Shown piece after piece: positions 2,705-31,459 of a stretch of 64,000 nucleotides of DNA; the first letter of the stretch is position 1, and each line of letters opens with the position of its first letter. A program made the translations under genes and the position numbers. A model generated the notes under the pieces. That model worked only from the letters and a program-made list of their open reading frames with translations. It was not told where the DNA came from and did no database searches. The DNA comes from Lingula anatina (Eukaryota > Animalia > Brachiopoda): NCBI GenBank assembly GCA_051362555.1, contig CM120644.1, positions 17,506,534 through 17,570,533 on the forward strand, written 5' to 3'.

Positions 2705-4558
2705 ATGTATTGCAAATTCTGGTCTCTGGTCATATATCTTATGGCGAATGTCGCTATATCCACAGTACAGGCAAGGTGTCCATTCATCCCTGACTGTCAG
2801 GCATGCTATGTGAGCACATACGGAGAAACAAGGGAGCAGGATTTGTGGACGTTGATGTGCAGACCTTCTAGTTTAATAAGATGTTCAAGTTTGTGTTCTG
2901 GATTAAGGAATTTGAATGCGACAGTAGAGCTTCTGGATCTCAGCCACAGTTTCGCATTATTTCGCGACTGTTTATATCAGCCTACATGCAACACTCAAAG
3001 CAGTGACACGCATTCTGTGTTTGAAATAGACATGTCCTACGCATATGTACATGATCTTTCAAGCCTTCTGAACATCTTGAAAAACAGCGTTCTGACATTA
3101 AAACTGAAGTATGCAACAGTGCATCGGTTTATAGAAACTCTGAGTTTTTCGAGCTATCCAATGTTAAAGACTGTTGACTTGAGTGGTACATATCATACAT
3201 TATATGATGGTGATATATCATTAGATGGAGCCACATACCTGGAAAGGCTGTACTTGGACAACAACTACCTAAGTGAGGTTCCTTATGAGATACGTAATAT
3301 GAGATCGCTGAAACACCTGTCTCTGCAACATAATTTCTTAAATAAAACTTCTCTGAATAAGCCCGACATTTTCCCCCTGGCATTGGAATCACTGGATTTA
3401 AGTCACAATAAATTCCGAGGAAGCGCAGACTTCAGCTGGATGAATTTGGTAAATTTGCGGACCTTACGAATGCAGAACACGTCTATGGGTTATTATAATT
3501 TACCCAAAAGACTTGGGAACATGTCCAATTTGGAAATATTGGATATAAGTTCTAGTGAAATGCCGCGGTATGCCTTGGATCATATTGAACAGTTTCTAGC
3601 ATTGAGAGTTTTTAATTTTTCTTTCAACAAACTTCGAGCTGTGACTCCGGCAATTCAAAGATCAAGCTTACTTCGTCGCTTATATCTGCGATCAAATGAT
3701 ATATGGTATGTGGCTTCTGAAACTTTTAAGAATATCTCAAATTTGACCGTGTTGGATCTTGGAGGCAACAAAATTAGTTCTTTGTCTCCCATTGCCTTCA
3801 CTGGCGTAGAGGAAAGTCTGGAGCAACTGTACCTTGATGGGAACCAATTGAAAGAACTTGGCAAATGTACCATATTACGTCTCAAACGCTTGCATAAACT
3901 GAGGATTGGCAGCAACCCATTTCATTGTGACTGCAAGATAGCTTGGCTTCGTTTATACCGTGATAAAGGAGTAGATAATGATGTCCACAAAGCTTTCTGT
4001 AAGAGCCCATTACGATTTAAAGGGATGGATGTCAGTGGCTTTTCGACAGAAGGTTGTGTCCCCTCACAATTGACTTTGGACATGAAGGACTGCATTAAAT
4101 TCATTTCGCCGACTAGCAATGTCGGAACTGAAACATCCCCCAAGCATACAGATAGCACCACCGGCGCTGATGAACCACAGCAGATGACGTCACCATATGA
4201 CGTCACACGGGTAACTGGTAATGAAGCTCAACCTTTGACATCATTGCATTTTTCAAGGCAGGCCCTTTCCTCAGCATATCTCGCAGTAGGATTTAGCGCC
4301 ACCTGTCTTGCAATTATTGTCGTCTACATTATTGTCACCGGGTGTCGATTTTATAGGCGATGTCGTGGTAAACAAAGCAAAGCCACCGCTGAAAGTGATG
4401 GGACCATGTTTAGGTTACAAGACACCAACATCGCCAAGGCTGGGGAAACAGGACCGTACCAAGAACTGGAGAGCGTCTCTCCTTATCAGAATGTTACTGA
4501 TTTAAACCGACCAGCTGAAAATTCCTACGAAGCTTTGAATATACACACAGCAATTTAA
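2705..4558 (+). CDS. LRR transmembrane receptor copy 1 (617 aa): signal peptide, Cys N-cap, ~14 LRRs, LRRCT, stalk, TM, Tyr-motif tail, no TIR
   Basis: Long ORF with LxxLxLxxNxL repeats, NPFHCDC LRRCT, TM AYLAVGFSATCLAIIVVYIIVTG, tail YQEL..YQNV..YEAL..TAI. ATG directly follows acceptor tttccag. AATAAA at 4955-4960. Confidence 0.93.
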   Translation: MYCKFWSLVIYLMANVAISTVQARCPFIPDCQACYVSTYGETREQDLWTLMCRPSSLIRCSSLCSGLRNLNATVELLDLSHSFALFRDCLYQPTCNTQSSDTHSVFEIDMSYAYVHDLSSLLNILKNSVLTLKLKYATVHRFIETLSFSSYPMLKTVDLSGTYHTLYDGDISLDGATYLERLYLDNNYLSEVPYEIRNMRSLKHLSLQHNFLNKTSLNKPDIFPLALESLDLSHNKFRGSADFSWMNLVNLRTLRMQNTSMGYYNLPKRLGNMSNLEILDISSSEMPRYALDHIEQFLALRVFNFSFNKLRAVTPAIQRSSLLRRLYLRSNDIWYVASETFKNISNLTVLDLGGNKISSLSPIAFTGVEESLEQLYLDGNQLKELGKCTILRLKRLHKLRIGSNPFHCDCKIAWLRLYRDKGVDNDVHKAFCKSPLRFKGMDVSGFSTEGCVPSQLTLDMKDCIKFISPTSNVGTETSPKHTDSTTGADEPQQMTSPYDVTRVTGNEAQPLTSLHFSRQALSSAYLAVGFSATCLAIIVVYIIVTGCRFYRRCRGKQSKATAESDGTMFRLQDTNIAKAGETGPYQELESVSPYQNVTDLNRPAENSYEALNIHTAI

Positions 4559-5357
4559 AGGTGATCTGGAAATGCCGACCTGTCTCTCGCACCAGAAAAT
4601 GATTTAAATGAGAAAAAAAAAATCAACTTTGTTAAAATCTGAAACACCGATAATGATTGAAGTAAACTTAGTATTCAGCCCTACACAAAATTTCAGCTTT
4701 TTCTGTCAAAGCAAATATGGAAACTGGAAATACACAAGGGTCAACATATTGTTAGACATTTGTGTACTGCACGTTGAGACACTCACTGCATCATTTGTCT
4801 TAACGTAAAATGCAGATATGTTGCTTTATTTCCTTTGCTTACATGTAATACCATGGACGTCTACAATGTACAGTAAGTGTTTGCTCTTACTGACTGCTAT
4901 AAATCACTATACATGTACAATGTGTCACCATAGATACTTATCATATTTCTAAGCAATAAATTTATATTTTATTGCACGTCAGTATATAATGTGTATATAT
5001 ACATTTAATGCATAGCTGATTTTCGGTTATACTAGTTTATGATAAGCATATTACTGATAAAAATCTGTCTCAAATCGACTGGTGTGACTTTTTTTATTAG
5101 CAATATATGTATAATAGTCCTTCAGTTAGACCTCCAAATTTTGGTCCGTCGGTACGAATTTTACAGCATTTTATAGCTTTGGCGACTATTTCTGGCAGTA
5201 GTTTTGCAGGTCAATTCCATGTGGTTGAGGGGGGGGGGGGGGGGGGGGCAGGGCTGAAAACAACAGCGTCGAGGAGTGGCAAAATTCCCAGCATTGTACG
5301 GGGAGTAACTAATTTAATTACGTTTGTACTCTCTGAAGTCAAGGCCCCACTAAAATA

Positions 5358-29721: not shown

Positions 29722-31459
29722 ATGTATTTCAAATTCTGGTCTCTGTTACTGTATCTTATGGCAACTATCGCTGTATCCACAGTACAGGCAAGGTGTTCAT
29801 TCATCCCTGACTGTGAGGCATGCTTTGTAAGCACATACGGAGAAACAAGGGAGCAGGATTTTTGGACGCTGATGTGCAGTTCATCAAGTTCAATAAGGTG
29901 TTCTAGTTTGTATTCTGGATTAAGGTCTTTGAATGCGACAGTGGGGCTTCTGGATCTCAGCCACAGTTTCGTAGAATCTTACAACTGTTTATATCAGCCT
30001 ACAAGCAAAATTCGAAGCAATGACAATCCTTCCGTGTTTGAAATAGACATGTCCTATGCCCATGTGAATGATCTTTCAAACCTTCTAAACATCTTGAAAA
30101 ACAGTGTTCTGACACTTAACCTTAAATATGCAAGAGTGCATCAGTTATTGGAGACTCTGAGTTTTTCGACTTATCCAATGTTAAGAAATGTTGACTTGAG
30201 TGGCACATTTCCTTCAGTACTTGGTAACTTATCACTAGATGGAGCCACTTACCTGGAGACGCTGTATTTGGACAACAATCGCCTGAGTGAGGTTCCCAGT
30301 GTGATACGTGATATGACATCACTGAAACACCTTTCTCTGCAACAACTTTTTAAATGAAACGGCTTTGGATAAGCCCGATATTTTTCCTTTGACATTAGAG
30401 TCACTTGATTTAAGTTACAATAACTTCCGAGGAAACGCAGACTTTAGCTGGATGAATTCGGTAAACTTGCGGACCTTAAGAATGCGAAGTACGTCTATTG
30501 GTGGCTATAAATTACCCAAAAAACTTGGGGGCATGTCCAACCTGGAAATATTGGATATAAGTGCCAACGCATTGACGCGGTTTTCCTTGGATAACATCGA
30601 AAAGTTTCCAGAATTGAGAGTTTTTAACTTTTCCTTTAACAAACTTCGAGATGTGACACCAGCAATTCAAAAATCACCCTTACTTCGTCGCTTATATCTT
30701 CGATCAAACGATATAGGGTATGTGGCTCCTGAAACCTTTAGGAATATCTCAAATTTAACCGTGTTGGATCTTGGAGACAACAAAATTAGTTCCTTGTCTC
30801 CCATTGCCTTCTCTGGTGTAGAAGAAAGTCTGGAGCGATTGTACTTGGATGGGAACCAATTGAAAGCCCTGGACAAATGTACCATAGTACGTCTCACACG
30901 CTTGCGTAGACTGAGGATTGGCGGTAATCCGTTCCATTGTGATTGCAAGATAGCTTGGCTTCGTTCATGCCATGATAAAGTAGTAGACAATGATGTGGAC
31001 AAGGCTTTCTGTAACAGCCCAAAAGAATTTAAGGGGATGGATGTCAGTGTTTTCTCGACAGAAGGTTGCGCCCCCTCACAGTTGACCTTTGATGACTGTT
31101 CTGAACCCATTAATAATGCACAGGTGACTGGAAATGAACCTATGACGTTATTTACAAGACGGGCTCTTGTCGCAGCATATTTTGCAGTGGGATTTAGCAC
31201 CACCTGTCTTGTATTTCTTGTCGTCTACATTACTGTCACCGGGTATAGATTTTATAAGCGATTCCGTGGTAAACAAAGCAATAATACCACTAAAATTGAG
31301 AGGACCATGCCTGGAGTACAAGACACGAACGTCACCGAGGCTGGGGAAACAAGACCGTATCAGGAATTGTCGAGAGTCTCTAATTACCAGAATATCGCAG
31401 ATGGAAACCGACCAACTGGAAATTTCTACGAAGCTCTGAATCCAAATACAGCAATTTAA
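29722..31459 (+). pseudogene. LRR transmembrane receptor copy 5, frameshifted (or truncated secreted 211-aa form)
   Basis: ORFs 29722-30357 and 30365-31459 together align to the full receptor. CAA-CAT-AAC of paralogs reads CAA-C-AAC at ~30343 (2-bp deletion), giving TGA at 30355-30357. No other disruption seen. Confidence 0.85.

What the first reader, a model, noticed from the sequence alone, without database searches (positions are those of the whole stretch)
2705..31459. Tandem array of TIR-less LRR receptors with tyrosine-based tails: candidate diversified invertebrate immune receptor system
Seen: five same-strand paralogs, each with one coding exon, a TLR-like ectodomain (~14 LRRs, NPFHCDC LRRCT), S/T stalk, one TM and a ~70-aa tail with no TIR domain but three invariant tyrosines. 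Established: TLRs signal through TIR, lamprey VLRs are GPI-anchored or secreted, and ITAM/ITIM tails normally sit on Ig- or lectin-type receptors. Inference: a locally expanded family coupling a variable LRR sensor to SH2-based signalling. Tandem expansion, ectodomain variability, mosaicism and pseudogenisation all fit birth-and-death evolution of immune or allorecognition receptors. I do not recognise it as a named family.
Basis: partly seen in the sequence, partly recalled or inferred. Interest (0 to 1): 0.9.

Follow-up and report, generated by a model that had tools for sequence, protein, structure and literature searches.

The report
Brachiopod LRR receptors with tyrosine tails
Five tandem genes, likely from a lamp shell (Lingula), encode leucine-rich-repeat surface proteins that lack the usual Toll signalling domain and instead share a short tyrosine-motif tail; the family is transcribed, and its members likely act as diversifying recognition receptors that would signal through tyrosine phosphorylation.

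Summary
Four intact genes and one frameshifted copy each have a single coding exon after a spliced 5' exon. They encode a likely signal peptide, 14 LRRs, LRRCT, stalk, one TM and a 70-aa tail (YxxL-x5-YQN-hydrophobic-x10-YEAL). No TIR sequence was found in the window. RNA reads show the family spliced and read through the tail into the 3' UTR. The only close relatives found are Lingula anatina proteins, with no ortholog elsewhere. The copies are mosaic, with moderate positive selection confined to the N-terminal half.

Corrections: variability lies on the ascending flank, while the concave face is conserved, unlike VLRs. The tail is not a strict ITAM (0 of 5) and matches ITIM in 3 of 5. Pseudogenisation of g5 is unproven, because other runs carry a frame-intact form. 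The architecture has a tested precedent, amphioxus BbLcLRR (TIR-less LRR receptor, three tyrosines, binds SHIP1).

Best reading (0.55): lineage-specific recognition receptors coupled to Src/SH2 signalling. Ligand, tissue and immune role are untested. Verdict: new variant of a known kind, interest 0.5.

The parts
1512..2704 (+). g1 5' intron (donor GTGAGT; acceptor TTCTTTCCAG directly before the ATG); an upstream exon ends at 1511
   Evidence: splice shown for the family by RNA
2705..4558 (+). g1 coding exon, 617 aa: likely signal peptide 1-23, Cys-rich N-cap, 14 LRRs (74-403), LRRCT, long stalk, TM about 520-547, 70-aa tail (4346-4555)
7696..9381 (+). g2 5' intron
9382..11226 (+). g2 coding exon, 614 aa, long stalk, tail 11014-11223
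12738..14467 (+). g3 5' intron; the exon end before it matches a spliced RNA read consensus at 26 of 30 letters
14468..16231 (+). g3 coding exon, 587 aa, short stalk, tail 16019-16228
17562..21452 (+). g4 5' intron (3.9 kb)
21059..21255 (+). degenerate relic of the N-cap coding region inside the g4 intron (72-76% identical to the genes; stops and a frame change)
21453..23300 (+). g4 coding exon, 615 aa, long stalk, tail 23088-23297
   Evidence: RNA depth in run X13
28361..29721 (+). g5 5' intron; RNA depth is zero over 29396-29683 in 3 of 3 runs
29722..31459 (+). g5 coding exon, short stalk, frameshifted near 30343 in this window; frame-intact form in contigs of runs X1 and X4 and in some RNA reads; tail 31247-31456

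Best explanation
This is a tandem family of TIR-less, single-pass LRR proteins, likely from Lingula, that likely act as cell-surface recognition receptors, most likely of non-self ligands, and would signal through phosphotyrosine motifs in their shared tail. Shown: gene structure, transcription and splicing of the family, architecture, sequence exchange between copies, a conserved concave face with a variable ascending flank and N-cap, and a conserved tail YxxL-x5-YQN[VIF]-x10-YEAL. Inferred mechanism: ligand binds the variable flank of LRR1-9 and the N-cap and clusters the receptors. A Src-family kinase phosphorylates the three tyrosines. The invariant YQN docks a Grb2-type SH2 adaptor (pYxN preference recalled), and the YxxL sites dock a tandem-SH2 or SHIP-type effector, steering uptake or damping of a response. 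Gene conversion shuffles the ligand-side segments while the signalling module stays fixed.
For: Architecture and absence of TIR. RNA from 3 runs covers the coding exon, tail and 3' UTR; 38 reads carry the spliced upstream exon. All three distal Tyr have a hydrophobic +3 residue in 6 of 6 full tails (chance about 0.004-0.006 from composition; the copies are related, so this counts as one observation). YQN is invariant, which a plain sorting signal would not need. The distant paralog XP_013407024 (29% identical, colinear ectodomain) has an unrelated 181-aa tail with 11 Tyr, three Yxx-hydrophobic motifs and one YxN. Mosaicism: p=2e-4, third positions p=4e-4. Selection: M2a over M1a 2dl=30.2, 15.6 without gap-adjacent columns; 0 of 19 mosaic null simulations reach 15.6, maximum 5.7. 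Flank identity is 0.39 vs 0.78 on the concave face, repeated with the held-out RefSeq paralogs (0.51 vs 0.77; 0.55 vs 0.85). Precedents: BbLcLRR binds SHIP1 through three Tyr (PMC8211107); oyster IgR uses Syk (PMC6994640).
Against: No ligand, tissue, induction, phosphorylation or binding data. Strict ITAM 0 of 5, broad ITAM core 1 of 5, ITIM 3 of 5. The concave face is conserved, the opposite of most sea-urchin TLR subfamilies (PMC3367398). With per-segment trees the summed selection test is not significant (p=0.077, df 12); only five sequences were available, and the flank class was chosen after seeing the data. Overall omega is about 0.44-0.55, and the tail's tyrosine part (pN/pS 0.45) is no more constrained than the LRRs. 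Yxx-hydrophobic motifs are also endocytosis signals (recalled). Two of the three RNA runs laid had no reads on the coding exons.
Confidence: 0.55

Rival explanations
1. Cell-identity or adhesion receptors (developmental, neural, gamete or self-recognition): the conserved concave face binds a shared endogenous partner, and the tail is scaffolded by PDZ and SH2 proteins.
For: Concave face conserved. C-terminal T-A-I fits a class I PDZ-binding pattern (pattern recalled) in 6 of 6 full tails. LRRTM2 and LINGO-1 score close to TLRs in Foldseek. Elfn proteins have Tyr-rich tails and a 5' non-coding exon, and Lrtm1/2 have PDZ ends (PMC2235866, passages).
Against: No ortholog outside Lingula. Young mosaic tandem array with a relic copy. 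An expressed variant ends in Thr instead of Ile (20 reads), which breaks the PDZ pattern.
Confidence: 0.2
2. Endocytic or scavenger-type uptake receptors: the Yxx-hydrophobic motifs are clathrin-adaptor sorting signals used unphosphorylated, and the receptors internalise cargo rather than signal.
For: Three Yxx-hydrophobic motifs in every tail; no strict ITAM.
Against: The invariant Asn at +2 of the middle Tyr and the fixed spacing of three motifs are more than a sorting signal needs (motif rules recalled).
Confidence: 0.15
3. Accessory LRR-only co-receptors (like RP105 or Hydra LRR-only proteins) that hand the signal to a TIR-bearing partner; the tail is secondary.
For: TLR3 and TLR8 ectodomains head the Foldseek list for the good model. 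The ascending flank mediates TLR dimerisation (PMC4888287, passage). Lingula has 25 TLRs, and Hydra LRR-only proteins pair with TIR-only proteins (PMC8609888, passages).
Against: The Foldseek matches are 15-23% identical and barely ahead of non-TLR LRR proteins, and TLR rows were in the folding alignment. No TLR outranks the Lingula LRR-only proteins by single alignment. The motif-rich conserved tail argues for signalling of its own.
Confidence: 0.1

Closest known systems
Amphioxus BbLcLRR (PMC8211107)
   Same: TIR-less LRRNT-LRR-LRRCT-TM receptor with three tail tyrosines in ITIM-like motifs; phosphorylated by the Src-family kinase Lck, binds SHIP1 and SHP1/2, induced by immune stimulants.
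   Different: It has 4 LRRs plus a WSC domain and a much longer tail, and was described as one gene. Here there are 14 LRRs, no WSC, a 70-aa tail with invariant YQN and a mosaic tandem family. Homology was not tested (sequence not fetched); a working analogue only.
Sea-urchin TLR multigene families (PMC3367398)
   Same: Single coding exon, tandem arrays, pseudogenes, positive selection in LRRs; some apparent pseudogenes there were assembly errors.
   Different: They keep a TIR domain and are selected mainly on the concave strands; here there is no TIR, the concave face is conserved and the flank varies.
Hydractinia Alr family (PMC9546547) and oyster CgIgR (PMC6994640)
   Same: Invertebrate single-pass receptors with ITAM or ITIM tails; Alr genes are clustered; CgIgR recruits Syk.
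   Different: Ig-type ectodomains; their ITAMs meet the consensus, which these tails do not strictly.
Biomphalaria PTC2 and GRC clusters (PMC7494358)
   Same: Lophotrochozoan clusters of divergent single-pass genes with haplotype-specific gene content.
   Different: No known domains there, and linked genetically to parasite resistance. Here the ectodomain is LRR, and haplotype variation is only suggested.
CD180/RP105 and other LRR-only eLRR proteins (PMC2235866; RP105 details recalled)
   Same: LRR ectodomain, TM, short tail, no TIR.
   Different: No orthology found; RP105 ranks 26th in Foldseek at 16% identity.
Lingula anatina XP_013399083.1 and XP_013407024.1
   Same: Same family: shared Cys-rich N-cap and colinear LRRs. 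The first shares the tail (74% over TM plus tail).
   Different: Uncharacterised, with automatic names (slit homolog 3-like, LRR neuronal protein 3). The first appears to fuse two paralogs, 58-79% identical to the window genes. The second has a different Tyr-rich tail.

Membership tests
Toll-like receptors | LRR ectodomain with juxtamembrane LRRCT and one TM | tested here: met
Toll-like receptors | cytoplasmic TIR domain | tested here: not met
   70-aa tail then stop; no TIR similarity in the window; RNA runs through the stop into the 3' UTR
Agnathan VLRs (features recalled) | hypervariable concave face | tested here: not met
   concave pN/pS 0.27, identity 0.78
Agnathan VLRs (features recalled) | GPI anchor or secretion; somatic assembly from LRR cassettes | tested here: not met
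   TM plus cytoplasmic tail; complete germline ORFs; tblastn finds no cassette library in the window, only one relic
ITAM receptors | Yxx[I/L]x(6-9)Yxx[L/I] (PMC9546547) | tested here: not met
   0 of 5; the broad x(6-12) core is met in 1 of 5 (g5)
ITIM receptors | [I/L/V/S]xYxx[I/V/L] (PMC9546547) | tested here: inconclusive
   3 of 5 window copies (g1, g4, g5); the RefSeq paralog matches at a different Tyr
ITAM/ITIM receptors | phosphorylation-dependent SH2 recruitment | not testable with these tools
   needs biochemistry
BbLcLRR-type receptor | TIR-less LRR-TM protein with three tail tyrosines | tested here: met
   PMC8211107
BbLcLRR-type receptor | WSC domain in the ectodomain | tested here: not met
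   Pfam finds only LRR families
BbLcLRR-type receptor | sequence orthology | not tested
   sequence not fetched
Slit and conserved neuronal LRR-TM families (LRRN, LRRTM, LINGO, FLRT) | EGF, LamG, Ig or FN3 companion domains (where the family has them) | tested here: not met
Slit and conserved neuronal LRR-TM families (LRRN, LRRTM, LINGO, FLRT) | orthology across bilaterians | tested here: inconclusive
   no end-to-end hit outside Lingula; tree backbone unresolved; remote orthology cannot be excluded
CD180/RP105 | orthology and MD-1-type partner | tested here: inconclusive
   only generic LRR similarity; partner not testable

The most novel reading that the evidence does not exclude
A brachiopod-specific, haplotype-variable self/non-self receptor system: gene conversion and selection diversify the flank of an LRR horseshoe, different animals carry different gene sets, and paralogs with and without an ITIM act as paired inhibitory and activating receptors on one Src/SH2 module, an LRR-built counterpart of NK-receptor or Alr clusters.
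Probability: 0.15. Interest if true: 0.8.

Novelty: new variant of a known kind. Interest (0 to 1): 0.5.

Why it matters
Tyrosine-motif immune signalling in invertebrates is known mostly from Ig-type receptors, with one tested LRR case in amphioxus. An expressed, diversifying LRR family with a fixed three-tyrosine tail in a brachiopod would show that LRR sensors were coupled to SH2 signalling independently in spiralians. It would also add a TIR-independent recognition arm that TLR surveys, which require a TIR domain, skip. The 70-aa tail and five natural ectodomain variants make the claim cheap to test. The public gene model hides the family by fusing two copies under a Slit-like name.

Tried and rejected
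No whole genome is held, so family size and the array's left end are open. Summed contig depths (about 45-52 over 13-25 kb vs about 90 at g5 in run X1) were not taken as copy number. A downstream TIR exon: no support, though 96 loose-end rows were not shown. VLR-like concave hypervariability: rejected. The first fold (6 rows, pLDDT 57) and its Foldseek list were uninformative and were replaced. The tree of the last LRRs plus LRRCT (43 rows: 5 window genes and 38 chosen from the 297 stored proteins) groups the family with Lingula LRR-only proteins at unstarred support only, and some rows may be out of register. The ESM Atlas and the wide VIA structure search gave no answer (63, 72, 79, 84). Complex prediction was not used: no suitable partner sequence was in hand. 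Earlier findings: none. Two papers were not held: the Lingula immune-gene survey and the Draper ITAM paper, both recalled only.
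Full report
Observation. Four intact ORFs (g1 2705-4558, g2 9382-11226, g3 14468-16231, g4 21453-23300) and a fifth copy (g5 29722-31459) lie on the + strand. g5 lacks 2 nt near 30343 relative to its paralogs. The intact proteins are 59-75% identical. Each has a hydrophobic N-terminus (signal peptide judged by eye), a Cys-rich cap, 14 LRR strands, an NPFHCDC LRRCT, a stalk, one TM segment and a 70-residue tail. 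The stalk is long in g1, g2 and g4 (26-28% S/T) and short in g3 and g5. Pfam reports only LRR families for 5 of 5 proteins. TIR regions of five TLR-type proteins find nothing in the window (best E 0.28), and a profile built from them gives 0 hits in 2130 six-frame segments. An ectodomain model from 22 rows is confident (pLDDT 84.8, pTM 0.85). Foldseek ranks TLR3 and TLR8 first, with LRRTM2 and LINGO-1 close behind, all at 15-23% identity. 'TLR-like' therefore describes the fold only; TLR rows were also in the folding alignment.

Gene structure and expression. In 5 of 5 copies the ATG directly follows the acceptor TTCTTTCCAG, and a conserved GTGAGTGCT donor lies 1.2-3.9 kb upstream, with an in-frame stop in the exon before it. 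Laid on g5 at 85% likeness, RNA runs X13, X14 and X15 (324, 296 and 282 reads) cover the coding exon, tail and 3' UTR, and have zero depth over 29396-29683. 38 reads break off at 29720, and the X14 consensus matches g3's exon end at 26 of 30 letters. No joint or loose end is listed within the tail, and 20 reads show a tail end, stop codon and UTR in one piece; 96 loose-end rows were not shown. Only 28 of 902 reads are at least 95% like g5, so expression is shown for the family, not for these exact alleles. In one search, X13 covered g3, g4 and g5 at low depth, while X7 and X10 had none on the coding exons. Tissues are unknown.

g5. The only X1 contig over the break at 92% likeness carries the two missing letters, as do one X4 contig and 3 of 11, 4 of 17 and 2 of 13 RNA reads. 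These may be g5 alleles or close paralogs. The frameshift is a null allele or an assembly error; pseudogenisation is not established. A true relic of the N-cap sits at 21059-21255.

Relatives. The only close hit among 7976 scored candidates is Lingula anatina XP_013399083.1; the rest are generic LRR proteins at E about 1e-26 or weaker. It reads as two fused paralogs, 58-79% identical to the window genes. From this I infer that the window is from L. anatina or a congener. The TM plus tail query finds only that protein (1 of 26 candidates). A profile search of 1.84 billion representatives adds one end-to-end match, L. anatina XP_013407024.1 (E 3e-58; 29% identical, same cap), with a different tail of 11 Tyr. 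The N-terminal profile finds these two (both were in the query) and otherwise generic LRRs (29 hits). A tree places the family with Lingula LRR-only proteins at weak support (97/75 and 89/74). No conserved ortholog was found; brachiopods and phoronids are likely thinly represented in these collections.

Evolution. Local trees differ along the genes; the incompatibility test gives p=2e-4, and p=4e-4 on third positions. Overall omega is 0.44-0.55. Exposed concave residues are as constrained as the core (pN/pS 0.27 vs 0.25). LRR positions +9, +11 and +12, the ascending flank, have identity 0.39 vs 0.78. That class was chosen after seeing the data, but the held-out RefSeq halves repeat the gap (0.51 vs 0.77; 0.55 vs 0.85). 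My own implementation of M2a vs M1a gives 2dl=30.2, with 4% of sites at omega about 5; 8 of the 9 sites with posterior above 0.8 lie in residues 57-296. Without gap-adjacent columns (534 of 626 kept) it gives 15.6, above all 19 mosaic null simulations (maximum 5.7). Against this, per-segment fits sum to p=0.077: the three N-terminal segments give p 0.046, 0.078 and 0.016, and the three C-terminal segments give nothing. Selection is moderate, N-terminal and rests on five sequences.

Tail. The pattern is YxxL-x5-YQN[VIF]-x10-YEAL, ending in TAI, in 6 of 6 full tails; 18 of the last 38 positions are invariant vs 9 of the first 32. By the consensus in PMC9546547, strict ITAM is met in 0 of 5 and ITIM in 3 of 5; the broader x(6-12) core (PMC6994640) is met in 1 of 5. 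YxN as a Grb2-type site, Yxx-hydrophobic as a sorting signal and S/T-x-hydrophobic as a PDZ end are recalled patterns. An expressed variant ends in Thr, which weakens the PDZ reading.

Mechanism. Best reading (0.55): recognition receptors whose variable flank binds ligand, whose clustering lets a Src-family kinase phosphorylate the tail, and whose phosphotyrosines recruit a Grb2-type adaptor and an SH2 phosphatase or kinase. Every step after the anatomy is inferred. Rivals: adhesion or cell identity (0.2), unphosphorylated uptake signals (0.15), co-receptor for a TIR partner (0.1).

What is known. Amphioxus BbLcLRR is a TIR-less LRR receptor with three tyrosines, phosphorylated by Lck and binding SHIP1 (PMC8211107: passages and Discussion), so the pairing of LRR and tyrosine tail is not new. 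Amphioxus FrLRR is a predicted GPI-anchored LRR protein acting through Grb2 (PMC10199209: abstract and passages). Other papers were seen as passages only: PMC9546547, PMC7494358, PMC6994640, PMC8609888, PMC4888287, PMC3367398, PMC2235866. No supplements were read. Ten full-text searches listed no description of this family, and neither accession appears in print there. The library lacks most subscription papers, including a Lingula immune-gene survey that I recall but could not read; it may mention such genes.

Verdict. The feature is real and expressed, and apparently undescribed. It is not a TLR, a VLR or a strict ITAM receptor; it likely works like BbLcLRR but has expanded into a mosaic family with flank-side diversity. 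New variant of a known kind; interest 0.5.

Noticed in passing
RefSeq XP_013399083.1 (P0001): The 905-aa model appears to fuse the 3' half of one paralog to a complete second one, under an automatic Slit name; neither half matches a window gene closely (58-79%).
   Followed up: yes
window, 92-108 nt before the donors at 1512, 7696, 12738, 28361: A conserved upstream ATG opens a short reading frame that stops before the donor in 4 of 5 units: a possible uORF, or part of the promoter.
   Followed up: no
window 5355-7028 and 47193-47596: Inverted repeat with 709-bp arms (86%) between g1 and g2, with a partial copy near 47.2 kb; looks like a foldback or MITE element.
   Followed up: no
window 39034-39570 +: Gly/Asn/Tyr-rich frame matching Pentapeptide_2 (E 1.4e-15).
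   Followed up: partly
window 42512-43712 and 62646-63763 (-); 56260-58674 (+): Duplicated EGF-like exons on the minus strand, and mucin WxxW exons on the plus strand: neighbouring multi-exon extracellular genes.
   Followed up: partly
window 35205-35279 - and 34089-34499 +: tRNA-Ile(AAT) and a DDE_3 transposase remnant below the Pfam cut-off.
   Followed up: no
window 1-2327 vs 26852-29227: The duplicated unit runs to the window's first base (82%), so the array may continue upstream.
   Followed up: no
RNA reads at 31480: An expressed variant ends in Thr rather than the Ile found in all window copies, and stalk variants absent from the window occur: more alleles or paralogs exist.
   Followed up: partly
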